64,000 nucleotides of DNA from an uncultured Candidatus Saccharibacteria bacterium (GTDB taxonomy: Bacteria; Patescibacteriota; UBA1384; CAYGGE01), in the NCBI GenBank assembly GCA_964349485.1, contig CAYGGE010000001.1, positions 69,204 through 133,203 of the forward strand. Reading direction: 5' to 3'. A model generated the notes under the pieces. That model was not told the origin of the DNA, ran no database searches, and was given only the letters and a program-made list of their open reading frames with translations. Position numbers and translations under genes: made by a program. Every line of letters starts with the position of its first letter. Within the stretch, counting starts at the first letter, position 1. Below are positions 1,101 to 39,940 of the stretch, one piece after another.

Positions 1101-1841
1101 ATGACACGACAGACCAAGGACTACTTGCTCCTTGCTTTCATCACGCTGACCGCACTCCTCGGTGGGGTGATGATCGGGAGAAACTACCCGAGCCAGGCAA
1201 ACGACGAGCAGGAGATCGCCGCCGGCCCGACCCACGCCCAGGCGACGGCCCCAGATGCGGGCACTGAAGAGGGCTACACCGCCACGTCGGCGGATGAGAC
1301 CCTCAACGCTGACCTATCTGTGGACAAGAAGAGCATCGGGCTATTCGATAAAGAAGGGAAACCGCTGCCAGTCAAGTGGGATCAGGGCTCGCTCGCGAGT
1401 CATGGGACCATCACCGACGCGGAATTCAGCCCCAACGGCTCACGGCTCCTCGTGCTCTACTCTGATGGTTATACGCATCTCTGGAATTCGGCGGCCGACT
1501 ACCGTAACGGCCTGGACTGGGCCAAAGGCTGGTCGGTCTATCTACCGCAAGGTGATGACGCAAGTACCGTAAGTACAATCACCGAATACAAAGACGATAA
1601 GGAGGGTGACACAGTCTACAGCGTCGTCGGGCTTAGTAGCGGTGACCTAGACGTGACCCTGATTCTTTCAGAGACATTCACCGAGGGAGTCGGCTACTCC
1701 CTCACCGCCACCAAGGTGGAGGACACGCCGGCCAGCACCCTGCCCAACGGCGGCGAGGGCGATCCTGGCCCTCCTGTCGACGAGAAGCCCGCGCCGGCTA
1801 CTACCAAGCCGGCACCGATCAAGAAAGGGACCAAGGCCTAG
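1101..1841 (+). CDS. Membrane-anchored paralog 2 (FSPNGSRLLVLYSDGYTHLWN ... TEGVGYSL) with a Pro/Thr-rich C-terminal tail
   Basis: ORF track 1032..1841. Strong RBS GGAGAG before ATG at 1101, and the upstream part of the track ORF covers the leader hairpin. Paralogous to 177..803 and 1963..2655. Confidence 0.6.
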   Translation: MTRQTKDYLLLAFITLTALLGGVMIGRNYPSQANDEQEIAAGPTHAQATAPDAGTEEGYTATSADETLNADLSVDKKSIGLFDKEGKPLPVKWDQGSLASHGTITDAEFSPNGSRLLVLYSDGYTHLWNSAADYRNGLDWAKGWSVYLPQGDDASTVSTITEYKDDKEGDTVYSVVGLSSGDLDVTLILSETFTEGVGYSLTATKVEDTPASTLPNGGEGDPGPPVDEKPAPATTKPAPIKKGTKA

Positions 1842-1873
1842 CTGGCCGCGGTCCCCTACCACACGAGCACAAG

Positions 1874-1962: not shown

Positions 1963-2655
1963 ATGAGCGTTGAATCTGAGGACCAAGAGGAGCAACCGAT
2001 CGCTTACTGGTCAAGCGAGATCGAAGTCTTCGAGCGTCAGGCATTCATCACCGGTTATCGGCAAGCGATGGAAAAAGCTTTCTCGCGAACAATGCTAGCA
2101 GTCTGTGCCGTCGGCTTTCTGGGTAGCTTCTTCGGAGCTGCAGCTAGTCACTGGACAAACCAGCAGCAAGCTGCCGTGCGACCAACAGTCATCGCGCCGC
2201 TCGACATCCCCCCTACCCTACCAATTACCGAAAAACAGGTTGGTTCGGATGATGTTCGGGTAATGATCGAGGACGACACGATCAAACTGACGCAGTCTGA
2301 TGGCATAAGGCTACCGACCAACTGGCGTCAAAACCGGCACGGGAAACCACTGTCGACCAGCCTCTCGCCGAACCGGAGCCGGCTCGCAGTCAGTTATATG
2401 GACGGTCAAGTCTGGCTCTGGAACATCGCCATGCGCAACGCCCCTACTTGGGCCGACGGCTGGCAGGTGCTACCGGCGAAGGAAGGGGTCGTCCGGACAC
2501 TGACCAGCTATGAGGTGGCGGACGACGGCGAAGTCCAGCGACACCGACTGGTCATAAGCGAGAATCTCCAGCCCATCCCTTTCCTCCTCACCGAGCGGTT
2601 CGATAAAACTGCCGGTAAGGGAGGCGGTTATGTCCTCGACGTAGCCGTAGAATGA
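1963..2655 (+). CDS. Membrane-anchored paralog 3 (LSPNRSRLAVSYMDGQVWLWN ... WADGWQVLP)
   Basis: ORF track 1924..2655. RBS GAAGGAGAAG before ATG at 1963. Motif is conserved with paralogs 1 and 2. Confidence 0.6.
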   Translation: MSVESEDQEEQPIAYWSSEIEVFERQAFITGYRQAMEKAFSRTMLAVCAVGFLGSFFGAAASHWTNQQQAAVRPTVIAPLDIPPTLPITEKQVGSDDVRVMIEDDTIKLTQSDGIRLPTNWRQNRHGKPLSTSLSPNRSRLAVSYMDGQVWLWNIAMRNAPTWADGWQVLPAKEGVVRTLTSYEVADDGEVQRHRLVISENLQPIPFLLTERFDKTAGKGGGYVLDVAVE

Positions 2656-2661: not shown

Positions 2662-2692
2662 CCGGCCCCCCGAGTGCGGGGGGCCGGTTTTT
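2662..2692 (+). terminator. Rho-independent terminator (CCGGCCCCCCG-agtg-CGGGGGGCCGG followed by TTTTT)
   Basis: Perfect 11-bp GC stem plus T-run directly after the stop at 2655. Confidence 0.8.
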
Positions 2693-2750: not shown

Positions 2751-3224
2751 ATGCAGTATAAGGTACCGCAGCATATTGACGAGGAAGATAAGATCCTCGG
2801 TCCGTTGACGTTTATTGACTTTATCTACCTTTTAGTTGGCGGAGCGCTGATTCTGTTTTGCTTTGTCTTGTTCGATTTTGGTCTCTTTCTCTTCCTCGCT
2901 ATCCCGATCGCTCTCCTATCGGCCGCATTGGCGCTAATTAAAGTCCAAGATCAGCCCTTTAGTCGATTTCTGGTAACATTTCTGCTCTACTTACGTCAGC
3001 CAAAAAGACGGGTTTGGGCTGATCTTGAAGCCGAAGAGGATGAAACAGCCAGCCAGCTACTCGATATTGTTGCCGATCGTGAGGTCAAATTTGCGAGGAA
3101 GGCAGGTAATACAGCATCGGCAGCTACAGCCCCACCATCACCGACTGTTATTAAAACCGATGCCTCGCCGATTGTTTATCCTACCAAACCCGCTCGCAGG
3201 GTCCAAGTCACCTTAGCCTCGTAG
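2751..3224 (+). CDS. PrgI/VirB3-like small membrane protein of a type IV secretion system
   Basis: N-terminus (QYKVPQHIDEEDKILGPLTFIDFIYLLVGGALILF) followed by two hydrophobic helices resembles the PrgI/VirB3 family. It sits immediately upstream of the VirB4 ATPase. Confidence 0.55.
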   Translation: MQYKVPQHIDEEDKILGPLTFIDFIYLLVGGALILFCFVLFDFGLFLFLAIPIALLSAALALIKVQDQPFSRFLVTFLLYLRQPKRRVWADLEAEEDETASQLLDIVADREVKFARKAGNTASAATAPPSPTVIKTDASPIVYPTKPARRVQVTLAS

Positions 3225-3232
3225 GAAGTATC

Positions 3233-3862
3233 ATGACCAAGCCTTCCCCTACTCAACACTACCTCAACCTAGCCGATATAAAGGATGGTTGTTTGGTTCT
3301 GCGTAATGGCGAGGTAAGACAAGTACTGATTGTGAGCGCTCTGAACTTTGCTTTAAAGAGCGAACAGGAACAGTCAGCGATTATTTATCAGTATCAAGCC
3401 TTCCTAAACTCACTGCCCTTTTCGATCCAAATCGTCGTTCAATCACGACAGCTTGACCTAACGACCTACCTCGCCAAGCTGAAAACCCAGGCCGAGCAGA
3501 CCACTAACCTGGCTCTCAAGGCTCAGATGCTTGAGTACCTCGACTTCGTTGGCCGGCTGGTGACTTTAGGCAATATCATGGAGAAACGATTTTATGTAGT
3601 AATCCCCTACGCGACGGCGGCTGCCCGCACGAGAAGCCTGTTTGGCCAACTATTGAAACGCCAGACGGTCTTTATCGAAGAAGCAGAGTTTAAGGTCGCT
3701 AAAGCCAAGCTCGACGAACGGGCCGAATCGATTCGCCAAGGCTTGGGCAGCATGGGTCTAGTGGCTAATGTGGCGACTAAAGAAGAAGTGGCAAAGATGT
3801 TGTACCAAACCTATAACCCGATCGAAACAGGAGAGGTAGCGGTCAGTCCGCTCGCATCATGA
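3233..3862 (+). CDS. virB4: VirB4/TrbE-family conjugative ATPase, N-terminal (CagE_TrbE_VirB-like) portion. It is probably the 5' part of a single virB4 gene interrupted by a -1 frame change.
   Basis: Sequence (LADIKDGCLVLRNGEVRQVLIVSALNF ... ) resembles VirB4 N-termini. It ends in a TGA that overlaps the ATG of the next ORF (ATGA at 3859-3862). The downstream frame is already open from 3817. Confidence 0.6.
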   Translation: MTKPSPTQHYLNLADIKDGCLVLRNGEVRQVLIVSALNFALKSEQEQSAIIYQYQAFLNSLPFSIQIVVQSRQLDLTTYLAKLKTQAEQTTNLALKAQMLEYLDFVGRLVTLGNIMEKRFYVVIPYATAAARTRSLFGQLLKRQTVFIEEAEFKVAKAKLDERAESIRQGLGSMGLVANVATKEEVAKMLYQTYNPIETGEVAVSPLAS

Positions 3863-5673
3863 ACAAGACTAAACAGCCCAAACAAGTTGAGACCCCCAAA
3901 ACCAGCCCGATTACCAGTGCCATGAACGCCATCGCGCCGGCAGCTTTTCTGATGACCGCCGACCATATCCAGCTTAACAACCTGTACGCCAAGACATTAT
4001 TCGTCTATACCTATCCCCACTTCCTCGAGACCAACTGGGTCTATCCACTAATTAATTTAGATATTCCGATGGATATTTCTTTCTTTATCTATCCGATCGA
4101 CAGCAACAGTCTACTCCCCCAGCTTCGCCGGAAATCGACCCAGCTCCATGCCAGTTTTAGTATCGAGCAGGATAAGGGCTTGGTACGTAACCCAGAGCTT
4201 GAGGCCGCGATTACCGATATCGAACAGCTTCGCGACACCTTAGTTCGGGGTGAAGCTCGACTGTTTCACTTAGGATTATACTTCACAATCTATGGCAAAA
4301 CACAGGAAGCGCTCTCGTCGGGCATCAAACAGATTGAGTCGTACTTGAACGGCGCCCTTATTTACACGAAGCAGGCCTTCTTACAGATGGAACAAGGTTT
4401 TAACTCGACCCTACCGATTGGCACCGACGAACTAGCCATCACCCGCAACCTCGACACTGGCTCGCTGTCCACCACCTTCCCCTTTACCTCGGCCTCCTTG
4501 ACATCCAACGAAGGTATCCTCTACGGCATCAATCGACACAATAATTCATTGATACTGTTTGACCGATTTAACCTTGAAAATGCCAATTCGCTGATCCTCG
4601 GTAAGGCTGGAAGCGGTAAAAGTTACTTAGTCAAACTAGAGATCTTACGGACCCTCATGATGGGTACCGACGTGATCGTTATTGACCCTGAGAATGAATA
4701 TCGGGCCTTGGCTGAGACCCTAGGTGGGACATACTTGAATTTTTCGATCAATTCCCAAACCCGCATTAACCCACTCGACTTGCCACCGCCTTACGAGGGT
4801 GAAAGCGGTGAGGATATTGTTCGTACAGCGATCGTGACCGCCCGCAGTCTCATATCGCTCATGGTCAACGGCCTCTCGCCAGAAGAAGACGCGGTGCTCG
4901 ATAAAGTGTTGTTGGAAGTTTATAAACGAAAAGGGATCACCACCGATATCGCCACTCACGGCAATCCACCACCACTACTAGCAGATGTCGTCGCCCTACT
5001 CGGTCAGTCGACGGGCATGCAACAGTTGGCGGTTCGTCTTGAACGCTATACTGAAGGGACGCTGTCTGGTCTCTTTAATCAGCCGACCAATATCAATTTG
5101 AATAACGGCTTTCTGGTCTTCTCAATTCGCGACCTTGAAGAACAGCTTAGACCAATTGGTAGTTACATTATCCTGTCGTTCATCTGGAACACCATCCGCC
5201 ACGAACTACGTAAACGAATGCTGGTCATCGATGAGGCTTGGATCTTGCTTCAGCACGAGGACTCAGCCGCCTACCTTTATTCCTTCGCCAAGAGGGCTAG
5301 AAAATATTACCTTGGCATGACCACGATAAGCCAGGACGTGGAAGACTTCTTAGACTCGAAATATGGCCGATCGATCATCAATAACACATCATTACAGATA
5401 CTACTTAAACAGTCGACCTCGGCGATCGATAAGGTAGCTAACGCCTTCAACTTAACCGAAGGCGAGAAACTGTTACTCCTTGAATCAGATATCGGCGACG
5501 GGCTATTCTTCGCTGGGCAAAACCACGTGGCCATTAAAGTCATCGCTTCAGGAATTGAGGATCAGATGATTACCACCAACCCGCAAGAAATTCTGGCCGA
5601 ACGAGCGATCGCCGAGCAAGCCGCAACGCAAGAAGGTACTCAGCCAGCGCGGCCAACTGCGCCGGCCGCTTAG
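3859..5673 (+). CDS. virB4: VirB4/TrbE/PrgJ-family T4SS ATPase (C-terminal ATPase portion)
   Basis: Walker A LILGKAGSGKSY, VIDPENEY and a Walker B-like MLVIDEAWILL. Size plus the upstream N-terminal fragment totals about 810 aa, typical of VirB4. Confidence 0.8.
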   Translation: MNKTKQPKQVETPKTSPITSAMNAIAPAAFLMTADHIQLNNLYAKTLFVYTYPHFLETNWVYPLINLDIPMDISFFIYPIDSNSLLPQLRRKSTQLHASFSIEQDKGLVRNPELEAAITDIEQLRDTLVRGEARLFHLGLYFTIYGKTQEALSSGIKQIESYLNGALIYTKQAFLQMEQGFNSTLPIGTDELAITRNLDTGSLSTTFPFTSASLTSNEGILYGINRHNNSLILFDRFNLENANSLILGKAGSGKSYLVKLEILRTLMMGTDVIVIDPENEYRALAETLGGTYLNFSINSQTRINPLDLPPPYEGESGEDIVRTAIVTARSLISLMVNGLSPEEDAVLDKVLLEVYKRKGITTDIATHGNPPPLLADVVALLGQSTGMQQLAVRLERYTEGTLSGLFNQPTNINLNNGFLVFSIRDLEEQLRPIGSYIILSFIWNTIRHELRKRMLVIDEAWILLQHEDSAAYLYSFAKRARKYYLGMTTISQDVEDFLDSKYGRSIINNTSLQILLKQSTSAIDKVANAFNLTEGEKLLLLESDIGDGLFFAGQNHVAIKVIASGIEDQMITTNPQEILAERAIAEQAATQEGTQPARPTAPAA

Positions 5674-5682
5674 GGACATCTC

Positions 5683-6477
5683 GTGAAGCTTGCGATTGTT
5701 CTATTTATCGGCATCATCTTCTTTGTCGGCCTCCCGCTTCTTATGAGTCCATTCTTCGCCGGCACTGGCGGTCAAGGTGAGGGTGTAAGTAGCGGTGAAA
5801 GCATCGCCGTTAGTCCACAAACTGGGCCACGCACCGACGGCGGCACCACCAGTGATGAAGTTCCTGCCCCACTTAAAAAGCTCTTTGAAGAGGCAGATGA
5901 CGCTACGGATACCTCGACCCCGGCCTCACTCTTAGCGGCCATCTCACACCAGGAATGCGGCCGCCTCTGGACATATACTGAAAAGAATTTACAGATAGTT
6001 CAGACGATTATCGATAACAATGATGACGTAGCTCATGTTCCAGTTGGTCTGGGCGATGCAAAAAGTCGAGTCCATCCTAACTCATGGGGCTGTGGATTTA
6101 AAAATGATTCAAATGTATGGGGGCCGATGCAGTTTCTGGACACAACGTGGGGTATTGCGAGTGGCGCCGACGCAACAACTCACCCAATCCCCCGAGCAGT
6201 CGGCTACGGCGCTAAGGCAAGTCAGTTCACTAACCGCGCTCCAGCCTTTGCCAACCAACCGGTTGTTTCTATGTTGAGCATCAAGGATTCGGTTTACGGG
6301 GCGAGTATCATGCTCTACGAAAACGCCAGTCAGCCAACGGTTTGGACTGAGGCGACAGTTAAGAAAACAGCGGCCAGGTACTACGGCAGTTGTGAGGGTG
6401 AACATGCGTCTTATTGCCAAAACATAGTAAGTAAGTGGCGTCGCTATGCTCCCCAATTTGAAGGAGATACACCATGA
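5683..6477 (+). CDS. Membrane-anchored lytic transglycosylase (SLT domain, VirB1-like) associated with the T4SS
   Basis: N-terminal TM helix. SLT motifs LLAAISHQECG (catalytic Glu context) and GPMQF...TW. GTG start with 9-nt spacing after the VirB4 stop. Confidence 0.6.
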   Translation: MKLAIVLFIGIIFFVGLPLLMSPFFAGTGGQGEGVSSGESIAVSPQTGPRTDGGTTSDEVPAPLKKLFEEADDATDTSTPASLLAAISHQECGRLWTYTEKNLQIVQTIIDNNDDVAHVPVGLGDAKSRVHPNSWGCGFKNDSNVWGPMQFLDTTWGIASGADATTHPIPRAVGYGAKASQFTNRAPAFANQPVVSMLSIKDSVYGASIMLYENASQPTVWTEATVKKTAARYYGSCEGEHASYCQNIVSKWRRYAPQFEGDTP

Positions 6478-7466
6478 GGAAGCTTTGGGAACAGGTCCGT
6501 CACTACCAGTATTGGATTATCCTTGGTGTCGTCTTAATCGCCGTATTGTTTAGCCTATTCAACCGTCGCTCAAATCCGTCTGCGCCAACTGGCACACCCG
6601 CCAAGACGCCTTCAGCCGTCACACCGCTGTCACGCTCCCCGGCAGCAATCAAACAACCAGTAAGCGATAGCCTGGATACCCTTTCGAACCATCCATTTCC
6701 TGCAGCCGCACTCGATGTAAACACAAAAACGATCGTCTACCACGACTTCGATAACGATGCATTTAAGCGATATACACTAAGTAGTGGGGCTGAACAGACC
6801 ATCGCTAAGGCCTCCGTCTACCTCACTAAAGCTCTGTGGTCACCCGACTTTACAACCCTCATCATTCAAGCCCTCAATGAAGTTGGTCGAGTAGGCACCA
6901 ACCCGTTTTATAGTGAAGCTCGACCTTTTGGGAGTACAGTTGTCGGCTCATACAAGTTACAAACCAAGCGATTCACTCCGCTCAACCCTAACATAAAAGA
7001 GATTGCCTATATCAGTCCCCAAGAAATTATCTATCAGTTTAACGACGGCCGACACAATAACATTTCAGTCGCCCAGGTTGATGGCAGTGCTTGGAAAAAT
7101 ATCAGCCGTCCGAAGGGTGAGGTGGCACTTCGTAACGCTGGCTACACGGCACTGCTTCAGGAGGTCGGGCAACCAAAGATCACTCGACATGGAGCTAATG
7201 GGAAAGTGATGGAAACAATCGACGTACCGACCGACCTCAAGCTCGCTCAAAGTAGTTGGACTGGGTCTGGTCGACAGGCACTGTACTGGATCGAGGAAGA
7301 TGGGCAGATCGCTATCAAACAGCTACGCGCCAATAAAAGCGAACTAGTGGCCACTGTTACGCTAAACACTGAAGATTTAGTCATTTTGTGGGATAATGAA
7401 ACAGGTGAGGTCTATCTGGCCAATTTTGACGGCCTGTTCAAACTCAATAGTATTGCCAAACCATAG
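6474..7466 (+). CDS. Membrane-anchored extracytoplasmic protein with TolB/PD40-like beta-propeller features (WSPDF motif)
   Basis: ORF track. N-terminal TM helix. WSPDF motif shared with the next ORF. 4-nt overlap with the upstream gene. Confidence 0.45.
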   Translation: MRKLWEQVRHYQYWIILGVVLIAVLFSLFNRRSNPSAPTGTPAKTPSAVTPLSRSPAAIKQPVSDSLDTLSNHPFPAAALDVNTKTIVYHDFDNDAFKRYTLSSGAEQTIAKASVYLTKALWSPDFTTLIIQALNEVGRVGTNPFYSEARPFGSTVVGSYKLQTKRFTPLNPNIKEIAYISPQEIIYQFNDGRHNNISVAQVDGSAWKNISRPKGEVALRNAGYTALLQEVGQPKITRHGANGKVMETIDVPTDLKLAQSSWTGSGRQALYWIEEDGQIAIKQLRANKSELVATVTLNTEDLVILWDNETGEVYLANFDGLFKLNSIAKP

Positions 7467-7473
7467 GACACCC

Positions 7474-8640
7474 ATGAGTCGACTTTACCTGTCATTAATC
7501 TTAGCTTTCATTGCCCTGGGTCTAGCTGGCTTTGTTTTTTGGCGCTATTTCTACCTTGGAACTCTAGTTTTAGATCTTGTTCCCACTCAGGCGACCGTCA
7601 CTCTGAATGGAGTGGCCGTGCCCGATCGGACGTTGCATTTGCGTCGGGGAACGTACGAGGTAACGGTCAGCGCACCTGGCTATCGCAATGAGTCATTCAC
7701 TCACACATCTAGCCTCGGCAGACAGGCCAATAAACGACTAGAGCTCGTCTCGCTCCCTCGGCCAAAGCTGATACTGGATGGGGCTATTAGTTCAGTGGCC
7801 ACCAATGCTGAACGGACTCACCTATTTTTCGTCAAAGATCATACTCTCTATCGCCTTAACTTAGCTGTCGCTGGACAACCCGCCCAAGCGATCACTCCGA
7901 AGCTAGCTGGTATCGTTCGAGTCGATTGGTCGCCTGACTTTGCGTTAGCGATTCTCTACAAAACGAATGGCGAAGTAGGACTATACGACTTTAATCGCTA
8001 CGATCTACTCAATCAAAGTTACAAAGTGCTCGGCCAGACAATCACGGCAACGACCTGGGAGGCTGACGGTAGCGCCTACTACTACCTCAATCAATTACCC
8101 GATGGCACGAACCTCTTAGTCAAGGCCGATCGGTCAGGGACTGACATTGCTCGTTACGATCACATTGGCGTGCCAGCTGGCACAAAAGTTACCTTAGTCA
8201 GCGGACCAGCCAATCAAGTCTTAATCACCGGAACAGACCGTCAGAGGCCGAACGATATTATCGTTAGCGATAACTACACCCGAACGATCACCCCGCTAAC
8301 CACTAGTCAAAATGCTTTTGCCCCTGTCCTCTCCCCCTCCAAGAAATATCTTGCCTATCTTGAGAATGGTGAGTTAGTCGTTGCCACAGCTGCCGGCAAA
8401 GATCGACGGAATACGAACCTGAGGCCGAGAGCCAATAGCTACGCTTTTGTTTCCGAAACCAGCCTCGCTGTACTCACTGCCAACATGATCAGCTTAATTA
8501 ACCCCCAAACGGGAGAGACCACGAGTCACGAGGTTTACGCCCCCGATGATACGATTACGGCACTTATTGCGAGTGCTGATGGCAAGGTAGTATCCTATGT
8601 CTACAAAGGCAATCTATTTGCCCTACCTCTTGGCCGGTAA
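7474..8640 (+). CDS. Membrane-anchored TolB-like beta-propeller protein
   Basis: ORF track 7396..8640. More likely start at ATG 7474 (MSRLYLSLILAFIALGLAGFVFW), just after the upstream stop at 7466. WSPDF motif. Confidence 0.45.
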   Translation: MSRLYLSLILAFIALGLAGFVFWRYFYLGTLVLDLVPTQATVTLNGVAVPDRTLHLRRGTYEVTVSAPGYRNESFTHTSSLGRQANKRLELVSLPRPKLILDGAISSVATNAERTHLFFVKDHTLYRLNLAVAGQPAQAITPKLAGIVRVDWSPDFALAILYKTNGEVGLYDFNRYDLLNQSYKVLGQTITATTWEADGSAYYYLNQLPDGTNLLVKADRSGTDIARYDHIGVPAGTKVTLVSGPANQVLITGTDRQRPNDIIVSDNYTRTITPLTTSQNAFAPVLSPSKKYLAYLENGELVVATAAGKDRRNTNLRPRANSYAFVSETSLAVLTANMISLINPQTGETTSHEVYAPDDTITALIASADGKVVSYVYKGNLFALPLGR

Positions 8641-8648
8641 GGAGCAGT

Positions 8649-9866
8649 ATGGCCAAGCGAAAAACGAGTCAATTCCCCGTTCTGACTAAATTCCAACAAC
8701 AAGCCGAGACGACAGCAGCTCGTTTGGCTCGTCTTGAGGCCGAAAATTTGGCCCGTTCCTCGGGAGCAAGTCGGTTTGCTGGGCGTAAGTTGGTAGCCAC
8801 CGCCACCCGCGTCGGTCAACAACTTGCCGATACAGAGAAAGAGACGGACCAAGAGCGACGACCTGAGGAGATATCTCCCCAGGAAGTTCGTGAGGTCTTT
8901 GCCGAGAAACAAGCCAAGGGTCAGCAAGTCCAGGCAACTAAAGTTCAAGAAGTAGCCCGCAACGCCGCTAGGCAAGAGATCCGCCAAGTTGGCAAAGCGA
9001 TTGCCAAGCAATTTACCCGTCAGGCCTTAGCCACCGCCACTAAAGCATTGTTGACCAATCCATATGTATTAGCCGTCCTAGCGGTCATCGGCCTTGCCGT
9101 TATGATCATTGTATTGATCTTCGCGATTGGACTAGGCGCTGCTGGGTCTGATCCGGCCATTAGCGGGACCAGTGTCCAACAGCCAATCGACCCCGTAAGC
9201 CATGGCGGGACGCTGAAAAGCGTTTTGGCCGGCTCAGTCCGTTCGGCTACCGCCGCAAAGACTTTACTCGCTGAACTTCAGAAACTACGTAAGCGCTTCG
9301 ACACTAACCCTGCCGCCACTAGCACGATTAATACCCTCCAAAAAGCGGCTGAAGCGATGATTGCCAGTCCAAACGACCAGACTGTTTTAGCCGAAAAGAG
9401 CGCCGTCATCAGTGCCGAAATGGCCGAATTACTGGCGTTATTGACCATGCCGGAGCGAATTGCGATTACTGCTCTCTCTAAGGTTACCGATCCGACCGAA
9501 AATTATTACGCACCTAACCCCACTCGGGCCTGTGCCGCTTTTGTCGGCAAGATCCTTCGCGAAGTAAAGGCCGTTCCCACGGTCTGTTCCTTCCGTGCAG
9601 TTACCTTAGCTAGCGAGGTCGAAAAGTTTGGGGCCACCCGAATCATCGCCGACAATACTCCGCTCAATCACGGTTCAGTTAGTCAGCTAGCGGCTGGCGA
9701 TATCATCTTCTTCAATAAAAAGCCTGGTTACTATGGCCATACGGGCATCGCCATCGGTGGTGGCGAGATGGTCGACACTAGCTCATCGGAGCGAAAGGTT
9801 AAGAAGCGACCGGTTATGGATCTTAGTAACGATTATCAAGCGATCAGTTCATTTCGGTTTAATTAA
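8649..9866 (+). CDS. Bitopic cell-wall hydrolase with a C-terminal NlpC/P60- or CHAP-like domain (a PrgK/TcpG-like T4SS hydrolase)
   Basis: Coiled-coil N-terminal region, TM helix (PYVLAVLAVIGLAVMIIVLIF), then a Cys...His pair in NPTRACAAFVGK ... YYGHTGIAIGGGEMVD, typical of NlpC/P60 or CHAP. Confidence 0.5.
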   Translation: MAKRKTSQFPVLTKFQQQAETTAARLARLEAENLARSSGASRFAGRKLVATATRVGQQLADTEKETDQERRPEEISPQEVREVFAEKQAKGQQVQATKVQEVARNAARQEIRQVGKAIAKQFTRQALATATKALLTNPYVLAVLAVIGLAVMIIVLIFAIGLGAAGSDPAISGTSVQQPIDPVSHGGTLKSVLAGSVRSATAAKTLLAELQKLRKRFDTNPAATSTINTLQKAAEAMIASPNDQTVLAEKSAVISAEMAELLALLTMPERIAITALSKVTDPTENYYAPNPTRACAAFVGKILREVKAVPTVCSFRAVTLASEVEKFGATRIIADNTPLNHGSVSQLAAGDIIFFNKKPGYYGHTGIAIGGGEMVDTSSSERKVKKRPVMDLSNDYQAISSFRFN

Positions 9867-9867
9867 T

Positions 9868-12576
9868 ATGCAACAATTATCCCAAGCACAGTCGCGCCTC
9901 AGTCAGCTAGCCAGGACAACCGGTCTACTAGGTTTGTTATTGGCCTTAGTATTGACATCACCACTGGATACACTTGGACAGCAAATCGATGAGACTATCG
10001 ATGATCCGGTAATCGTCTCTAACCCAGTGCCCATCGATGCCGACCGCTTGACCAGCCTCTCGACCCTCCTCTCGACGAAGACAACGCTCGACGATGCCGT
10101 AGCTAATCCAGCTATCGTCTTAAACGAGCAGGATTGGCGGGATTGGCAGAACCTCGAGGGCAAGGATCTCTCGATTTATGATAAACGAATCATGACTGGC
10201 CTCTTGCCGGGCTTAGTTAACGAAGTCGGACCGGGTTTTGAACAAGTCGTGGTTGATCGAGTAAGACGTGGCTATACCGACGAGACGACGGCAATCAGCC
10301 GGAAACTGCCCGACTCAACCAATATCAGTCAGCACTACTATGGCAAAGCCGTATCGCTTACGTCCTTAGGAACAACCCGATGTCAAAATGGATCAGCCTT
10401 CTTTCCACAGTTGATCGATGCGAAATTACCGGTTTGGGTTCACTGGCAGACCGGCGAGGCGGACAAGCAAACTGTCCGATGGCCCTTGGCCCGTAGTTTT
10501 GACGGCCTTATCAAGCATATCTTCTGGCTAGAGGGTCGAGCCCTGACCGAGACGCCGATCGCCGCTGAGACTTGGTCAGATTTCCTGATTGCCATCGCCA
10601 AGAGTGAATTGGAGCAACGGTTCGGGTTAAGAAAAGGTAGTCTAAACAATGTGCCTATTGATGACCTCGATGTGGCATTAGCCAGTGGCCGTCTAGCTAC
10701 TGCCCTCGGCTTAACTGATTTGCCAATCGGAACAACCAAAGCCGAGCTTTTCGAATCAATTGGCCGTCGAAAAGCCGAGGTTGAGCTTAATCTACCGATT
10801 TACGCCTTCGAGGGAACAACTTGGACCGCCATTTATCGAACAATTGGTCAGCGAGTCCTAGAACATGAACTTGGCTTGCCCGATGTCCCGATCAGTAGTC
10901 TAGTCACCGCCGATAATAGTACTGATCCGAAGCTCGCCTTTGGGGGTGAGGCCCGTTTTGGAGCGCTGGCAGACGCAATTGGAGAACGTCAAAACTACTA
11001 TAGTGACTTACGAGTCGCCCTTAATCTGCCAGTCGGTGAGTATTTAGCTTCCAGTAGTGGGTTAGCTTTCCCGGATCGACTGCTCCTGGGTGATGCTGGA
11101 GCGTTCACGACGCTTGGTGCCTACTTTCTGGCTGATAGTCTCGATCTTTCGCCTGGCGACACCAAAACCTTGGTCGAGAATCTAGATAATGACCAGACGA
11201 CCAGTGATCGAGTCATCAACCTTAAAACCGCCCGCCCGATTGACCCAGCCATCAGACCCGAGACACTGTTTAATCTTGAAGTTTCAGACCAACCAAAACT
11301 CTTCGAATCGATTGGCCAACAGGCCGAGTCGACAATCAGTAGTCACCTGCCGCGACTTAACGAGGACGTCTTACAGGCGATGAAGGGTAATAATAAGATT
11401 CCAGAGTTAGGACAGATTATTTCGACCCTAAGTAACGCTAAAGGACGCCAGGCCATCTTAACCAAGATTGCCAGCGCCAGTATCGCCGATGCCAATTATC
11501 AAGGGAACCTGACCAAAGCCGCCCTACAGAACCGAGGAAGGGCGCTGTTCGCCGGAACGATCGGTCTTTCACCCGATGCAATTAGTAGGGTGGAACAGAG
11601 TAAAGCTACGCCGATCGAACTCGAACAGACCGTCAGTACAGTCGCCGACGCGATGGGTTGGCCATCACCCTATGATTCGCGGGTGGCTACGACCGACAAG
11701 ACCTTAATCGAAGATCTGCTGGGGAGCGTCGGTAGCTCTCTCGCCCCAAACGCTACGATAGCCTTAAAGCGCCGCTTACTGACCGCTGGCGCCCATCAGC
11801 TGTGGAACCAGTTAGATATCCCAAAAAGTCTCGTCGATAGTTTGGATCGTTACTTCTTTCTCGGCCAAGCCCTAGCCACACCGGCAAGACTGCCCAGTAC
11901 CAGCCAAGGGACGTCAGACAGCGACGAAGGAGAGACTATTCCTGACGACTTCTTTTCCTCAATAGAGACACAGGCTCCGGTCATCCACCAAATCAGTCAA
12001 GCGACTAGCCTGCCCGAAGCCGATATCACCTACTTCTTCACGGGCCAGATGAGGCCAGCCCTAATTCGAGCGACGGCCGCTTTGGTAGGTCGCGAGCTAA
12101 ACGATGCAGGGACCATGACACCGGCTGAGGTTATCAAACTTCTCGACACCAGTGCGACCGACCTTGGCAATCAACTGGTCAGTCAACCGACAGCCCCTGA
12201 TGTGCTTGGCCCGACATTTCTCGACTTAGCAAAGAAGGCCATCGCGGCCGATGATCCATATAAATTATGGGATGCCTTTCAGGGCGAGATGGTTTACCAG
12301 TGGAATATGGCCTGCCAAGACAAGCAGACCTTAGCCGAAACAGCCATCAGTCGTCTAATCAGTTACCTCATCTCCTTACCTGACAGCAGTCAAAATCAAG
12401 AAGATGTTCCCACTACCCGGCCGGTTCAGATCATGACCCTAAAGGGCTCTGCTGGACTGGCGGGAGGAATTAGCTCGAAGATTAAGGAAGCCTATCCGAA
12501 TGCGGATGGCGAGAACTATAAATACGGTTTATATGCCTTTGCCAGAGGTTGGGATAATGTTTATATTGCGTACTAG
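9868..12576 (+). CDS. Large (about 900 aa) signal-anchored surface/secreted protein of unknown function at the end of the T4SS operon
   Basis: ORF track 9733..12576. More likely ATG at 9868, right after the upstream stop at 9866 (MQQLSQAQSRLSQLARTTGLLGLLLALVL). No recognisable catalytic motifs. Confidence 0.5.
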   Translation: MQQLSQAQSRLSQLARTTGLLGLLLALVLTSPLDTLGQQIDETIDDPVIVSNPVPIDADRLTSLSTLLSTKTTLDDAVANPAIVLNEQDWRDWQNLEGKDLSIYDKRIMTGLLPGLVNEVGPGFEQVVVDRVRRGYTDETTAISRKLPDSTNISQHYYGKAVSLTSLGTTRCQNGSAFFPQLIDAKLPVWVHWQTGEADKQTVRWPLARSFDGLIKHIFWLEGRALTETPIAAETWSDFLIAIAKSELEQRFGLRKGSLNNVPIDDLDVALASGRLATALGLTDLPIGTTKAELFESIGRRKAEVELNLPIYAFEGTTWTAIYRTIGQRVLEHELGLPDVPISSLVTADNSTDPKLAFGGEARFGALADAIGERQNYYSDLRVALNLPVGEYLASSSGLAFPDRLLLGDAGAFTTLGAYFLADSLDLSPGDTKTLVENLDNDQTTSDRVINLKTARPIDPAIRPETLFNLEVSDQPKLFESIGQQAESTISSHLPRLNEDVLQAMKGNNKIPELGQIISTLSNAKGRQAILTKIASASIADANYQGNLTKAALQNRGRALFAGTIGLSPDAISRVEQSKATPIELEQTVSTVADAMGWPSPYDSRVATTDKTLIEDLLGSVGSSLAPNATIALKRRLLTAGAHQLWNQLDIPKSLVDSLDRYFFLGQALATPARLPSTSQGTSDSDEGETIPDDFFSSIETQAPVIHQISQATSLPEADITYFFTGQMRPALIRATAALVGRELNDAGTMTPAEVIKLLDTSATDLGNQLVSQPTAPDVLGPTFLDLAKKAIAADDPYKLWDAFQGEMVYQWNMACQDKQTLAETAISRLISYLISLPDSSQNQEDVPTTRPVQIMTLKGSAGLAGGISSKIKEAYPNADGENYKYGLYAFARGWDNVYIAY

Positions 12577-12839
12577 CTTCTCACGTAAAGCTCTTTAACG
12601 ACCGACTCGCCAAAAGCACTATTCAATTGAGCGATGATTGCCTCTTTGCGTAAGACAAGATCTTGGGCCGCTACTGGGCTATGAGCGATAATCGTTAGAC
12701 GACCGTTGCGGTAGCGAATTGGCTCAAACCGACCAGCCGACACTTGTTTCACCTTTGCCAGCACAACGGCAGCATCAATTGACCGGGACAAGCCGTTGCC
12801 GGTTTTCTTTGTGATGATCTGGCTGATTGGTTTAAACAT
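12573..12839 (-). CDS. DUF721-family small protein (DciA-like) downstream of recF
   Basis: 88 aa. Conserved position after recF. Pattern ...RYRNGRLTIIAHSPVAAQDLVLRKEAIIAQLN resembles DUF721. Confidence 0.6.
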   Translation of the reverse strand: MFKPISQIITKKTGNGLSRSIDAAVVLAKVKQVSAGRFEPIRYRNGRLTIIAHSPVAAQDLVLRKEAIIAQLNSAFGESVVKELYVRS

Positions 12840-12855: not shown

Positions 12856-13974
12856 CTACCTTAGTTTCTCAATCTTCGCCTCTTGGCGCAACTTGGTGTC
12901 CAGATAGCTAACTTCAGTCGTAGTAATGACCGCTTGATGGTTACCGATCAACGTCGCCAATTGACCACGACGATCCAGGTCAAGTTCGGAGTAGGCATCG
13001 TCTAACAGAAAGATGAGCGGCACTGGCTCCTTGGCGGCAAGTAGAAAATCGGCCTCGGCCGCCTTGAGGGCGAGGGTCGCCGATCGGAATTCGCCTCGAG
13101 AACCAAAGGTCGAGAGCGGCCGACCATTTAAGACTAAAGTGAAGTCGTCCCGCTGAGGACCATAAAGGCTCGAGCCAGCGCTAATCTCTCGATCTTGAAA
13201 CTGCTCTATTGACCCCCGTAATAGTTCCTGCCACTGGGTAGCTTGTGTGGGACAGTCGGAGGGGTGGCGATATATACCCTTTAATCCACTTCGCTCACTA
13301 ATTGAGGCCGCTTTGTACTCGAGTTGGAGTAATTCTTTTTTACCACTCATCACTTCGTAGTGACGAGTAATGGTCTGATTAATTAGCTGTAGGAAACCTA
13401 CTCTTGAGGCGATAAGATAGCCAGCTTCTTCCACAAAAGAGTCATTCCAAAAATCTAATTGATCGCGGCTCGCCTGACCTTCATCTATTTGACGGAGTAA
13501 GCGGTTTCGTTGACGTAGGATCTTTTGGAGTTGAATCAGATGATAAGCATATCGCCTGTCGCTTTGAACTAGGACCAGATCGAGAAAGTGACGGCGGCTT
13601 TGGGGTGAACCAGCCACCAAATCGATAGATTCGGGTAAAAAGAGTACCACCCGGACATTGCCTAACAGTTCAATCGCCCTCCGCGCCACGCCATTAATTT
13701 TAACCGACTTGCCGCCGCGTAGTTGCTGGGAAAGGGTAACTTCAATCCGAGTCTCACCAATATCCCCCACCAAACGAGCAACATCGCTCTCCCAGGCGAT
13801 TGCCTCCTTGTCCTGTAAGGCCCGAAAACTGCGAGCCAAAGCCAAGAAGCCGATTGCCTCCAAAATATTCGTCTTGCCCACGCCATTCTTCCCAATAATA
13901 GCCGTCACCCGTTCAAAAGTGAAAGTTTGGTCGGAGTAACTTCTGAAATTAGTGAGGTGAAGGGAGGTAAGCAT
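12856..13974 (-). CDS. recF: DNA replication and repair protein RecF
   Basis: N-terminus LHLTNFRSY and Walker A GKNGVGKTNILEAI. Located in dnaA-dnaN-recF synteny. Confidence 0.95.
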   Translation of the reverse strand: MLTSLHLTNFRSYSDQTFTFERVTAIIGKNGVGKTNILEAIGFLALARSFRALQDKEAIAWESDVARLVGDIGETRIEVTLSQQLRGGKSVKINGVARRAIELLGNVRVVLFLPESIDLVAGSPQSRRHFLDLVLVQSDRRYAYHLIQLQKILRQRNRLLRQIDEGQASRDQLDFWNDSFVEEAGYLIASRVGFLQLINQTITRHYEVMSGKKELLQLEYKAASISERSGLKGIYRHPSDCPTQATQWQELLRGSIEQFQDREISAGSSLYGPQRDDFTLVLNGRPLSTFGSRGEFRSATLALKAAEADFLLAAKEPVPLIFLLDDAYSELDLDRRGQLATLIGNHQAVITTTEVSYLDTKLRQEAKIEKLR

Positions 13975-13986
13975 GAGTGTAAAGTT

Positions 13987-14058
13987 CTCTGGTTGTCTAA
14001 TTCGCTTCGCTATCTGGTTGTCTGGTTATGAACTAGAGAACTAGACGACCAGAAAAAC
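13987..14058. repeat. Copy A of a roughly 70-85 bp intergenic repeat element. Core is ..AACCAGAYAGCGAAGCGAA..GACAACYAGAGAAC when read toward the downstream gene. This copy is 13 bp upstream of the recF start.
   Basis: Aligned by eye to the copies at 32761..32832 and 46125..46210. It contains internal CTGGTT/AACCAGA half-site repeats. Confidence 0.7.
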
Positions 14059-14065
14059 CTCGCCT

Positions 14066-15175
14066 CTAGTCGATCTTCAGTGGCATAACCAGCGAAAAGT
14101 ACTCTTTACTATTGGCCGGCCGCAACACCGCTGGTCGATCAGGACCAGAAAATTCGATGAAAACATTGTCTGAGCTGATCACAGAAAGCGCATCTAGAAG
14201 ATATTTTGCATTGAAGGCGATGGTCAGTTCCTCGCCCTCGGCAATCGCCGTCAGACTACTCATCGCCTCGCCTTTTTGGTCGGCAACAGATTGAATAATC
14301 ATGCCATTGCCTGGTGAGATCTGACATTTCACCATGCCGCCCGCATCTTTAGTGAACAGTTGGGTGGTCTTCAAACTCGCGGTCAAGTCGCCGACATGGG
14401 CGGTGACTCTCGTCTGATAACTATCAGGGATGATTGTTTTATAGGGTGGATAATTACCCTCGATTAAGCGCGAGACCAAAAGGGTCGATTTATAGCCAAA
14501 TTGAATCTGATTATCCCCAACAAAGACCGAAATATCCACAGTCTTATCTTCGATTATCCTCATAACCTCTAGCAAGGTTTGTTTGGGAACAATTACCGAA
14601 CATTCAGACTGATCAGTATATTTGACCGATCGTTCAGCTAAGCGATGACTGTCAGTTGCTACGAGCACTAATCTATCGTTCTTACATTGTAATAGGACAC
14701 CGGCTAAGACAGGGCGGGTATCGTCGAGGGCAGTGGCGTAAAGAACCTGTCCAACCGCTTCTTTTAGAGTTTCTGTTTTAAGGCTGAAAGTTGGTAGAGC
14801 TTTAAAGAACGGTAGGTTGGGGAACTCGGAGGCATCGAGACCACGAATCTTGACCCCTGTGTGCTCACTGGTCAGGTGGAGAGTTGCATCATCGGACACC
14901 TTTCCATTGAAGTAGAGGTCATTACTACTTTGAATGAATTCGTGAAATAAACGAGCTGGTACGGTGAACTTTCCTGGTTTTTTTACTTCGGCCGGAATTG
15001 TTGTTTGAATTCCTATTTCCAGATCAGTTACCGATAGAATTATCTGATCATCTTCTGTGACTAGGAGAATGTTATTTAAAATAGGTAGGGGCATGCGGTT
15101 AGTAGCTAATCGGCTAACTATCCCTAGTCCAGCTATGAGATCTTGTTTTGCTACTTTAAAGTTGAGTTCGCTCAT
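14066..15175 (-). CDS. dnaN: DNA polymerase III beta subunit (sliding clamp)
   Basis: 369 aa. Position directly after dnaA. N-terminus MSELNFKVAKQDL is typical of DnaN. Confidence 0.9.
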   Translation of the reverse strand: MSELNFKVAKQDLIAGLGIVSRLATNRMPLPILNNILLVTEDDQIILSVTDLEIGIQTTIPAEVKKPGKFTVPARLFHEFIQSSNDLYFNGKVSDDATLHLTSEHTGVKIRGLDASEFPNLPFFKALPTFSLKTETLKEAVGQVLYATALDDTRPVLAGVLLQCKNDRLVLVATDSHRLAERSVKYTDQSECSVIVPKQTLLEVMRIIEDKTVDISVFVGDNQIQFGYKSTLLVSRLIEGNYPPYKTIIPDSYQTRVTAHVGDLTASLKTTQLFTKDAGGMVKCQISPGNGMIIQSVADQKGEAMSSLTAIAEGEELTIAFNAKYLLDALSVISSDNVFIEFSGPDRPAVLRPANSKEYFSLVMPLKID

Positions 15176-16854: not shown

Positions 16855-16924
16855 GACAACCTCCCGGAACCTATTGTTATTACCGACCAACCTTCGTAAA
16901 GTCGTAGCTCCAATAGTCACACAA

Positions 16925-39871: not shown

Positions 39872-39940
39872 TCCTCCTTAAAGGATGTAGGACATAGGTT
39901 TTCTTAAGTATACAATACCTACACAATACTACAAGTAGGG

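What the first reader, a model, noticed from the sequence alone, without database searches (positions are those of the whole stretch)
2751..12576. Type IV secretion-like operon placed immediately beside the replication origin
Eight tightly packed or overlapping plus-strand genes look like a T4SS module. They are a PrgI/VirB3-like membrane protein, a VirB4 ATPase (Walker A GSGKSY), an SLT lytic transglycosylase, two TolB-like membrane-anchored proteins, an NlpC/P60-CHAP-like hydrolase and a roughly 900 aa surface protein. The module sits between the DUF721-recF-dnaN-dnaA block and an upstream paralog triplet. No VirD4 coupling protein, relaxase or VirB11 is present. The system therefore looks like a secretion/pilus apparatus, plausibly an episymbiosis organelle, rather than a conjugative element. 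Its position next to oriC suggests it is core genome rather than a mobile island.
Basis: partly seen in the sequence, partly recalled or inferred. Interest (0 to 1): 0.7.

Follow-up and report, generated by a model that had tools for sequence, protein, structure and literature searches.

The report
Patescibacterial type IV secretion operon beside oriC
This is a real, chromosomally fixed type IV secretion gene cluster of the kind already described in ultra-small CPR/Patescibacteria, sitting next to the replication origin and lacking DNA-transfer genes, so it is a new example of a known system rather than a new one.

Summary
Eight plus-strand genes (2751-12576), spaced -4 to +9 nt apart, encode PrgI/VirB3, a TrsD-like protein that matches the N-terminal part of VirB4 models, a monoderm-type VirB4 ATPase, and five membrane-anchored envelope proteins. 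The operon converges on dciA-recF-dnaN-dnaA. DnaA boxes place oriC about 4.4 kb away. No relaxase, coupling protein, VirB11 or integrase was found in the 64 kb window.

- The "SLT" gene (5683-6477) matches no profile. Only motifs and gene position support the call.
- Only one "TolB-like" protein (7474-8640) is shown to be a beta-propeller.
- The 902 aa protein carries a LAS (DD-peptidase/hedgehog) fold with two of its three zinc ligands replaced, plus about 600 aa of helices with no solved relative.

This system is already published. Wang et al. 2023 showed it is essential in Southlakia epibionticum, in the same order next to recF. Quinonero-Coronel et al. 2025 described the PrgI-TrsD-VirB4 core, the missing relaxase and the dnaA proximity across Patescibacteria.

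Verdict: a new member of a known kind in a Berkelbacteria-like lineage, of modest interest.

The parts
177..803 (+). Paralog 1 of a triplet of small membrane-anchored proteins. Each carries one or two WD40-like blades.
   Evidence: Triplet alignment shows 34-41% identity. N-terminal TM segment. Weak WD40 Pfam hits. The triplet profile matches single WD40 blades in PDB proteins.
1101..1841 (+). Paralog 2 of the triplet.
1963..2655 (+). Paralog 3 of the triplet.
2666..2683 (+). GC-rich hairpin followed by a T run, between the triplet and prgI. It looks like a terminator and suggests the T4SS operon is a separate transcription unit.
   Evidence: This is a consensus match only.
2751..3224 (+). PrgI/VirB3-like membrane protein.
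   Evidence: PF12666 at 38.9 bits against a cutoff of 27. Hydrophobic hairpin at aa 33-70.
3233..3862 (+). TrsD-like protein, equivalent to a detached N-terminal part of VirB4.
   Evidence: NCBIfam VirB4_plasma 1.5e-8 at model positions 128-233, TrsD 5e-5, CD1110 at positions 11-92. PF26593 TraC-like.
3859..5673 (+). VirB4 ATPase of the monoderm (MPF-FATA/CD1110) type. Walker A lies at nt 4600-4623 and Walker B at nt 5224-5241.
   Evidence: It aligns only to model positions 186-734 of 752, so the N-terminus is supplied by the upstream gene.
5683..6477 (+). Membrane-anchored 264 aa protein in the position held by SLT/lysozyme genes in relatives. It carries SLT-like motifs (E91-C, GPMQ 147-150, YYG 233-235), but family membership is unproven.
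   Evidence: No profile hit. Positional counterparts L012:11816-13165, L002:11806-13017 and L005:11690-13792 carry PF01464 SLT. Motif alignment.
6474..7466 (+). Membrane-anchored 330 aa protein with no family assigned. It may be a divergent paralog of the next gene.
   Evidence: Ortholog in L012 at 32% identity. The link to the F family appears only in an iterated search and is not reproduced. One search is circular.
7474..8640 (+). Membrane-anchored PEGA-like beta-sandwich followed by a 7-bladed beta-propeller.
   Evidence: AF2 model at pLDDT 89.4 and pTM 0.77. Foldseek top hit is 3bws Lp49 (Ig-like domain plus propeller) at 4e-14, followed by WD40 propellers. PEGA at 21.6 bits. Homologs carry PF08308 and PF07676. 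The family is found near virB4 in 18 ORFs of related loci.
8649..9866 (+). Bitopic NlpC/P60-type cysteine peptidase. It has an N-terminal cytoplasmic region of about 140 aa, a TM segment at aa 140-158, and an extracellular catalytic domain with Cys in RACAAFV (aa 293-299) and His in GHTGIA (aa 363-368).
   Evidence: PF00877 at 23.2 bits against a cutoff of 23, plus a weak CHAP hit. PDB 6b8c at 0.0065. PHROG tail-lysin hits. TM segment. Homologs near virB4 in 13 ORFs of related loci.
9868..12576 (+). Membrane-anchored 902 aa protein. A LAS-fold (DD-peptidase/hedgehog) domain is built from aa ~80-230 plus the C-terminal strands 854-901, with an all-alpha region of about 600 aa in between. Two zinc-ligand positions are substituted.
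12573..12839 (-). dciA (formerly DUF721). It converges on the 902 aa gene and overlaps its end by 4 nt.
   Evidence: PF05258 at 2.7e-10.
12856..16932 (-). recF (12856-13974), dnaN (14066-15175) and dnaA (15406-16932).
   Evidence: Translations. tblastn finds counterparts in related loci.
16925..17096 (+). Cluster of four DnaA boxes (two perfect TTATCCACA) between dnaA and rnpA. This is the probable oriC.
   Evidence: Cumulative GC-skew minimum at 12-20 kb. rnpA, yidD and yidC lie to the right.
39434..42452 (-). Array of four VirB2-like T4SS pilin genes (145, 172, 249 and 415 aa). It is probably part of the same machine but lies about 27 kb from the operon.
   Evidence: PF18895 at 43.6 and 34.1 bits (cutoff 26.6), and 15.5 and 18.2 bits below the cutoff. 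Two-helix C-terminal hairpins. Homologs lie within 10 kb of virB4 in seven related loci.

Best explanation
The region is the core operon of the Patescibacteria-type type IV secretion system, a chromosomally fixed derivative of the monoderm (Gram-positive/MPF-FATA) conjugation machinery. The organism appears to be Berkelbacteria-like.

Shown by the sequence and tool results:
- A PrgI/VirB3 membrane protein.
- A VirB4 ATPase with intact Walker A and B motifs, whose N-terminal part is encoded by a separate TrsD-like gene.
- A downstream block of single-pass membrane proteins whose bulk lies C-terminal of the single predicted membrane segment: a protein in the SLT position, a PEGA plus 7-bladed propeller protein, an NlpC/P60 peptidase, and a 902 aa protein with a LAS fold.

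Inferred:
- PrgI tethers the TrsD/VirB4 ATPase to the membrane.
- The hydrolase-type proteins open or bind the cell wall around the apparatus, in the VirB1/PrgK/TraG role.
- The propeller proteins and the large helical protein act as wall-spanning scaffold or contact surface.
- The VirB2-like pilins encoded 27 kb away are the polymerised substrate.

Because relaxase and coupling protein are absent, the machine most likely does not conjugate DNA. It more likely builds a pilus-like conduit or exports proteins at the contact with a host bacterium. This follows the homologous, essential cluster of Southlakia epibionticum.

The position next to recF-dnaN-dnaA is ancestral synteny. It may also raise gene dosage.
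For: Core components. PrgI, TrsD and VirB4 are assigned.

Phylogenetic neighbourhood. The nearest VirB4 relatives are all from Patescibacteria MAGs at 48-88% identity. PrgI-TrsD-VirB4 is syntenic in 27-30 of 80 loci. The whole order is kept in L012.

Envelope module. One search finds the F, G and H families near virB4 in related loci. Searches show the PEGA plus propeller architecture. Searches show the LAS fold. Searches support NlpC/P60.

Domain-for-domain match to the published cluster. In Southlakia epibionticum ML1, SEML1_0005 is a PEGA protein. SEML1_0006 has two lysozyme-like domains plus a cysteine proteinase domain. SEML1_0007 carries a Hedgehog/DD-peptidase domain. SEML1_0008, 0009 and 0010 are VirB4, TrsD and PrgI. 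SEML1_0004-0010 are scored essential and lie directly after dnaA-dnaN-recF in convergent orientation (PMC10633639 supplements).

Absence of transfer genes. No relaxase, T4CP or integrase in the window.

Pilin array..

Origin..

Phylum-wide description. The same features are reported in PMC12102498.
Against: - No polytopic VirB6-like protein occurs in the operon or anywhere in the window, and no NTF2/VirB8-like protein was recognised. The membrane channel is therefore not accounted for here.
- Only 64 kb of the genome was examined, so a coupling protein or relaxase could lie elsewhere. The 2025 survey finds VirD4-like genes far from virB4 in many genomes.
- The SLT assignment of 5683-6477 failed every statistical test.
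- The LAS domain of the 902 aa protein lacks two zinc ligands, so it may not be a hydrolase.
- No expression or functional data exist for this organism.
- The operon is transcribed head-on to replication, which fits awkwardly with a simple high-expression argument for its position.
Confidence: 0.8

Rival explanations
1. It is a DNA-moving machine after all. It would be either a conjugation system whose relaxase and coupling protein lie elsewhere in the genome or are too divergent to recognise, or a DNA-import system in the manner of the archaeal Ced or Helicobacter ComB systems.
For: VirB4 gives weak matches to the archaeal DNA-import ATPases CedB (9.6e-12) and CedD (1e-5). PMC12102498 reports thousands of VirD4-like genes far from virB4 in Patescibacteria, and competence genes near the T4SS in class ABY1. 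Only 64 kb of this genome was seen.
Against: No relaxase or T4CP occurs in the window. The CedB and CedD scores are far below those families' cutoffs (700 and 600 bits) and far below the CD1110 match. In S. epibionticum the coupling-protein homolog is not essential while the T4SS is. In the same organism, deleting comEC abolishes competence without affecting viability (PMC12102498; PMC12857230).
Confidence: 0.12
2. It is a decaying remnant of an integrated conjugative element that has lost its transfer genes and has no current function.
For: The system descends from monoderm conjugation machinery. VirB6, VirB8, T4CP and relaxase are missing from the locus. One hydrolase-like domain has lost its metal ligands.
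Against: All eight ORFs are intact and tightly coupled, and the Walker motifs are intact. The gene order and the position next to recF are conserved across classes that differ by 40-50% in VirB4 sequence. There is no integrase, and the only tRNA gene in the window (18854-18943) lies on the far side of oriC rather than at a border of the cluster. The homologous cluster is essential in S. epibionticum.
Confidence: 0.04
3. The five genes downstream of virB4 are a cell-wall remodelling or division module that merely sits beside the ATPase genes and is not part of the secretion apparatus.
For: These genes encode generic envelope domains: NlpC/P60, a LAS fold, PEGA and a beta-propeller. The window holds many other wall enzymes, including M23 at 24346-26032, VanW/PG_binding_4 at 55093-57081 and C39-like at 60866-61981.
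Against: Overlaps and gaps of -4 to +9 nt imply co-transcription with virB4. The F, G and H families recur next to virB4 in many loci even when the order changes. Gram-positive T4SSs need dedicated wall hydrolases such as PrgK and TraG (discussed in PMC12102498).
Confidence: 0.04

Closest known systems
T4SS cluster of Candidatus Southlakia epibionticum ML1 (SEML1_0004-0019; Wang et al. 2023, Cell, PMC10633639)
   Same: The PrgI-TrsD-VirB4 order is the same. Lysozyme-, cysteine-peptidase-, Hedgehog/DD-peptidase- and PEGA-type envelope proteins follow virB4 in both. Both clusters converge on recF-dnaN-dnaA at the origin. Neither has a relaxase or coupling protein in the cluster, and both genomes encode VirB2-like pilin arrays.
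   Different: Here the pilin array is about 27 kb away rather than adjacent. No VirB6-like (SEML1_0013), NTF2-like (0012) or 0011-like gene lies next to prgI, and a triplet of small WD40-blade proteins sits there instead. The PEGA domain is fused to a full 7-bladed propeller. The lysozyme and cysteine-peptidase functions are on separate genes. The LAS domain is split around a helical region of about 600 aa and lacks two zinc ligands. Sequence identity outside VirB4 is too low to detect.
Patescibacteria-clade T4SS as surveyed by Quinonero-Coronel et al. 2025 (Microb Genom, PMC12102498)
   Same: The VirB4 is of the MPF-FATA-related type. TrsD and PrgI are associated with virB4. Relaxase is absent, pilin arrays are present, and the locus lies close to dnaA and dnaN.
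   Different: This particular lineage and its accessory genes are not described individually in that survey. No phylogenetic tree was built here to place the VirB4 formally in the clade.
Gram-positive conjugative T4SSs (pCF10 Prg/Pcf, pIP501 Tra, pGO1 Trs; MPF-FATA)
   Same: All have VirB3-like PrgI and VirB4 (PrgJ/TraE), and pGO1 has TrsD. All have a bitopic wall hydrolase with a cytoplasmic N-terminus, one TM segment and external hydrolase domains (PrgK/TraG-like). None has an outer-membrane core.
   Different: This locus has no relaxase, coupling protein, VirB6 (PrgH/TraL), VirB8-like protein (PrgL/TraM) or LPxTG adhesin. It is chromosomal and fixed next to the origin. It has VirB2-like pilins, which Gram-positive systems lack.

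Membership tests
Patescibacteria-type T4SS (MPF-FATA-derived) | VirB4 ATPase with Walker A and B motifs, closest to monoderm VirB4s | tested here: met
   conju_CD1110 at 386 bits against a cutoff of 325. PDB 4ag5 at 2.3e-54. Motifs located.
Patescibacteria-type T4SS (MPF-FATA-derived) | VirB4 belongs to the monophyletic Patescibacteria clade | tested here: inconclusive
   Among the 80 best related loci, nearly all come from Patescibacteria MAGs at 48-88% identity. No tree with reference MPF classes was built.
Patescibacteria-type T4SS (MPF-FATA-derived) | TrsD-like gene and PrgI/VirB3-like gene directly upstream of virB4 | tested here: met
   The arrangement is syntenic in 27-30 of 80 loci.
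Patescibacteria-type T4SS (MPF-FATA-derived) | No relaxase or coupling protein associated with virB4 | tested here: met
   Pfam scans of nearly all window ORFs of at least 74 aa found none. The rest of the genome was not seen.
Patescibacteria-type T4SS (MPF-FATA-derived) | VirB2-like (PF18895) pilin genes, often in arrays | tested here: met
   A four-gene array at 39434-42452, with two genes above the cutoff. It lies 27 kb from virB4 rather than adjacent.
Patescibacteria-type T4SS (MPF-FATA-derived) | VirB6-like polytopic membrane protein | tested here: not met
   No polytopic protein occurs in the operon. Among the window's polytopic proteins, only YidC, ZIP, an ABC transporter and DUF2207 were identified. 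VirB6-like proteins from L001 and L006 find nothing in the window. The 2025 survey also reports VirB6 as scarce in several classes.
Patescibacteria-type T4SS (MPF-FATA-derived) | VirB8-like (NTF2-fold) bitopic protein | tested here: inconclusive
   No sequence match was found. The triplet has VirB8-like topology, but its profile matches WD40 blades. No structures were predicted for the triplet or for 6474-7466.
Patescibacteria-type T4SS (MPF-FATA-derived) | Cell-wall hydrolases encoded next to virB4 | tested here: met
   NlpC/P60 and a LAS-fold protein. The SLT-position gene remains unproven.
Patescibacteria-type T4SS (MPF-FATA-derived) | Required for epibiotic growth | not testable with these tools
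   Known only for S. epibionticum ML1 from Tn-seq (PMC10633639).
Conjugative element (ICE or plasmid T4SS) | Relaxase, type IV coupling protein, and integrase or attachment sites | tested here: not met
   None found in 64 kb. The neighbours are housekeeping genes, and the position is conserved across classes.
SLT lytic transglycosylase (PF01464), for 5683-6477 | Significant match to the family profile | tested here: not met
   No hit at E up to 0.1 in Pfam, NCBIfam or PHROGs. No PDB hit. hhalign against positional SLT genes gives 2.8% probability.
SLT lytic transglycosylase (PF01464), for 5683-6477 | Catalytic Glu motif (E-S), GLMQ motif and AYNxG-like motif | tested here: inconclusive
   E91-C, GPMQ and YYG are present and invariant in the one homolog. 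They align with the motifs of SLT-bearing counterparts. The motif definitions come from recall.
NlpC/P60 (PF00877), for 8649-9866 | Profile match and Cys/His catalytic residues | tested here: met
   23.2 bits against a cutoff of 23. PDB NLP/P60 6b8c at 0.0065. Cys in RACAAFV and His in GHTGIA are present. The match is borderline.
LAS metallopeptidases (M15/M74, DD-peptidase/hedgehog fold), for 9868-12576 | LAS fold | tested here: met
LAS metallopeptidases (M15/M74, DD-peptidase/hedgehog fold), for 9868-12576 | Zinc ligands H-x6-D plus a C-terminal His | tested here: not met
   The window protein has SQHYYGKAVS, with Ser at the Asp position, and ends in VYIAY, with Tyr at the His position. Remote giant relatives keep SxHxxGxAxD and VH(I/V)G(Y/F). 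The assignment of these residues as ligands rests on recalled family knowledge, not on a superposition.

The most novel reading that the evidence does not exclude
In this Berkelbacteria-like lineage the T4SS may work without a VirB6/VirB8 channel. Lineage-specific proteins would then stand in as the wall-spanning part of the apparatus. One candidate is the 902 aa protein, whose catalytically dead LAS domain is split around a helical body of about 600 aa with no solved relative. The others are the single-blade WD40 triplet, possibly assembling into a composite propeller, and the PEGA-propeller proteins. That would be a structurally new solution for a monoderm T4SS envelope complex.
Probability: 0.12. 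Interest if true: 0.55.

Novelty: new member of a known kind. Interest (0 to 1): 0.3.

Why it matters
The Patescibacteria T4SS is the first T4SS shown to be essential for its own bacterium, and its substrate is unknown. This locus adds a divergent, compact example from outside Saccharimonadia. It shows which parts stay constant: PrgI, TrsD, VirB4, a wall-hydrolase block, a PEGA protein, and the position against recF-dnaN-dnaA. It also shows which parts are free to move or be replaced: pilins, VirB6/VirB8 and accessory scaffolds. That helps define a minimal conserved set for structural and genetic work. It does not open a new question.

Tried and rejected
- SLT assignment of 5683-6477. I tried Pfam, NCBIfam, PHROGs, PDB sequences by phmmer and by profile, a word-indexed homolog search (only 2 relatives), local jackhmmer over 3,508 ORFs of related loci, and hhalign against SLT-bearing positional counterparts. 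None was significant. Only motifs and position remain.
- Paralogy of 6474-7466 with the propeller protein. The hhalign result is circular, because the query was a row of the alignment, so I discarded it. Non-circular hmmsearch and hhalign gave nothing. Only an iterated search links the two.
- VirB6. A hydrophobicity scan of all window ORFs, and tblastn with the polytopic proteins found upstream of prgI in L001 and L006, gave nothing.
- VirB8-like reading of the triplet. I rejected this on sequence grounds, because the profile matches WD40 blades. The fold was not predicted.
- Mobile-island reading. I rejected this because there is no integrase, relaxase or T4CP, and the position is conserved.
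- Source organism. Cluster look-up and contig look-up returned no names, and one look-up found nothing. The taxon is inferred from the closest MAG, labelled Berkelbacteria (88% VirB4 identity).
- Foldseek against the PDB found nothing for the 902 aa model as a whole.

Full report
**1. What is there**

The window carries eight co-oriented plus-strand ORFs between 2751 and 12576. Their boundaries are 2751-3224, 3233-3862, 3859-5673, 5683-6477, 6474-7466, 7474-8640, 8649-9866 and 9868-12576. Neighbours are separated by between -4 and +9 nt, which is the pattern of a single operon.

A GC-rich hairpin with a T run at 2666-2683 lies between the upstream paralog triplet and the first gene. This is a consensus match only. 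The last gene overlaps the convergent dciA gene (12573-12839, PF05258) by 4 nt. recF, dnaN and dnaA follow on the minus strand.

Four DnaA boxes, two of them perfect, lie at 16925-17096 between dnaA and rnpA-yidD-yidC. Cumulative GC skew reaches its minimum at 12-20 kb. The probable oriC is therefore about 4.4 kb from the end of the operon.

**2. The core T4SS genes**

- 2751-3224 matches PrgI (PF12666) at 38.9 bits against a cutoff of 27.
- 3859-5673 matches the monoderm VirB4 model conju_CD1110 at 386 bits against a cutoff of 325 (E 2.8e-115).
- Its best solved relative is the Thermoanaerobacter VirB4 C-terminal domain 4ag5, at 2.3e-54.
- Walker A (GKAGSGKS, aa 248-255) and Walker B (VIDEAW, aa 456-461) are intact.
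- The VirB4 protein aligns only to positions 186-734 of the 752-position model.
A precomputed annotation calls it PF26593 TraC-like.

The ATPase is therefore split into a TrsD-like part and a VirB4 part.

**3. The envelope genes**

All five downstream proteins have a single predicted membrane segment.

It has no significant match in Pfam, NCBIfam, PHROGs or PDB sequences, either as a single sequence or as a two-sequence profile. It has only two relatives in the word-indexed protein collection. hhalign against its SLT-bearing counterparts gives 2.8% probability.

What does support an SLT-like role is position and motifs. The gene directly after virB4 in L012, L002 and L005 carries PF01464 SLT. 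A multiple alignment puts the window protein's E91-C, GPMQ and YYG under the motifs of those proteins. I rate this likely but unproven.

*7474-8640.* With an alignment of 18 sequences, this protein gave a confident model (pLDDT 89.4, pTM 0.77). The model has a TM helix, a PEGA-like beta-sandwich and a seven-bladed beta-propeller. Foldseek's best hit is the Ig-plus-propeller antigen Lp49 (4e-14), followed by generic WD40 propellers. Some homologs carry PEGA and PD40 annotations. 'TolB-like' is acceptable at fold level only.

*6474-7466.* This protein has an ortholog in L012 at 32% identity. Its link to the propeller family appears only in an iterated search. It was not reproduced with a profile that excludes it. 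The strong result is circular and I disregard it.

*8649-9866.* This protein reaches the NlpC/P60 cutoff by a small margin (23.2 against 23 bits). It also matches a solved NlpC/P60 at E 0.0065 and phage tail-lysin families. Its membrane segment is central (aa 140-158). That gives the bitopic topology of Gram-positive T4SS wall hydrolases.

*9868-12576.* This family is rare: 30 cluster representatives among 1.84 billion proteins, of which 15 score below 1e-30. Its model is good (pLDDT 80.6, pTM 0.82).

Remote giant relatives (1300-2600 aa) keep the motif SxHxxGxAxD and a C-terminal VH(I/V)G(Y/F). The window protein and its close family instead have Ser or another residue at the Asp position and Tyr at the C-terminal His position. 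By recalled knowledge of LAS enzymes these are zinc ligands, so the domain is probably not catalytic. This step is an inference.

**4. What is absent, and what lies elsewhere**

No relaxase, coupling protein, VirB11 or integrase domain was found in any window ORF scanned. The remaining genes are housekeeping, including purA, pnp, rpsO, msrA, msrB, fur, hsp20 and transporters.

No polytopic VirB6-like protein occurs in the operon or the window. Relatives such as L006 and L001 do have one directly upstream of prgI.

Four tandem genes at 39434-42452 on the minus strand carry the VirB2-like T4SS_pilin domain. Two are above the cutoff and two below. Their homologs lie within 10 kb of virB4 in seven related loci.

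**5. Relatives**

A scan of one genome per species returned 343 relatives of the VirB4. The best 80 are nearly all Patescibacteria MAGs.

- The closest is a MAG labelled Candidatus Berkelbacteria (L012, 88% identity). It keeps the whole gene order.
- PrgI-TrsD-VirB4 is syntenic in 27-30 of the 80 loci.
- dnaA, dnaN or recF lie within 10 kb of virB4 in L004, L043, L063 and L064.
- An identical copy of the locus on a Logan contig (L081) extends 6.1 kb to the left of the window. It shows a weak GH25-like protein, a 133 aa protein and two proteins of about 1370 aa, none of them polytopic.

**6. Comparison with what is known**

Wang et al. 2023 (PMC10633639) describe an essential T4SS in Southlakia epibionticum ML1. 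They note that it most resembles Gram-positive conjugative systems, has pilin genes, and lacks recognisable coupling and relaxase proteins.

Their supplementary tables give the following layout:
- dnaA, dnaN and recF are genes 0001-0003.
- The convergent genes that follow are 0004 (prealbumin-like) and 0005 (PEGA).
- 0006 has two lysozyme-like domains plus a cysteine proteinase domain, and 0007 carries a Hedgehog/DD-peptidase domain.
- 0008, 0009 and 0010 are VirB4, TrsD-like and PrgI.
- 0011 has no assigned function, 0012 is NTF2-like and 0013 is VirB6-like.
- 0014-0019 are pilins.

This is the mirror image of the window's layout, with the same domain types downstream of virB4.

Quinonero-Coronel et al. 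2025 (PMC12102498) report several findings across 3,035 genomes:
- A Patescibacteria VirB4 clade nested in MPF-FATA.
- Frequent TrsD and PrgI next to virB4.
- VirB2 arrays.
- Near absence of relaxases.
- Proximity to dnaA and dnaN, with a gene-dosage hypothesis.

A 2025 review repeats this and speculates about a pilus-like conduit to the host (PMC12857230).

**7. Mechanism**

Shown: the gene content, motifs, folds and synteny described above.

Inferred:
- PrgI anchors the TrsD/VirB4 ATPase.
- The wall-active or wall-binding proteins make and line the passage through the peptidoglycan.
- The propeller and helical proteins act as scaffold or contact surface.
- The VirB2-like pilins are assembled by the machine.
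- The system serves interaction with a host bacterium rather than conjugation.

The channel component is unaccounted for in this window, and the transported substrate is unknown.

**8. Verdict**

This is a real feature, correctly read by the first stage apart from three gene-level labels. It is a new member of a known kind. The lineage-specific points are of modest interest: the detached pilin array, the absence of an adjacent VirB6/VirB8, the WD40-blade triplet, and the split, apparently inactive LAS-fold protein.

Noticed in passing
window 39434-45182 (-): The start of the VirB2-like pilin array overlaps the stop of the second of two solute-binding-protein genes (SBP_bac_8, 42449-43819 and 43812-45182). 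Pilins and substrate-binding proteins may therefore be co-transcribed.
   Followed up: partly
window 2751-12576 relative to oriC at ~16.9-17.3 kb: The operon is on the plus strand to the left of the origin, where GC skew indicates the minus strand is the leading strand. It is therefore transcribed head-on to replication, unlike dnaA-dnaN-recF-dciA.
   Followed up: no
window 12573-12576: The 902 aa gene and dciA converge and overlap by 4 nt at their stop codons. This leaves no room for a terminator between them.
   Followed up: no
window 14445-14562: A second cluster of four one-mismatch DnaA-box-like sites lies inside dnaN.
   Followed up: no
window 33417-39368 (+): Three consecutive membrane-anchored ORFs (325, 876 and 807 aa) have no Pfam match and no homolog in the 80 related loci. 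They converge on the pilin array.
   Followed up: partly
window 1-2655: The paralog triplet region has higher G+C (58% in the first 2 kb) than the window average of about 49%. The triplet has no detectable homolog in any of the 80 related loci, so it appears lineage-specific.
   Followed up: partly
L081:1-6269 (same genome, left of the window): Upstream of the triplet lie a membrane-anchored protein with a weak GH25 match, a 133 aa protein and two proteins of about 1370 aa with no family. In L012 the same position holds proteins of 2043 aa and more than 724 aa. These may be further parts or substrates of the system.
   Followed up: partly
P0037-P0050 (remote relatives of 9868-12576): Giant proteins of 1300-2600 aa share the LAS-like N-terminal region and keep an intact SxHxxGxAxD motif and a C-terminal VH(I/V)G(Y/F). 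They look like the active ancestors of the degenerate 900 aa family.
   Followed up: partly
window 24346-26032, 55093-57081, 60866-61981: The window is rich in other wall-active genes: two Peptidase_M23 genes, a VanW/PG_binding_4/G5 protein and a Peptidase_C39-like protein.
   Followed up: no
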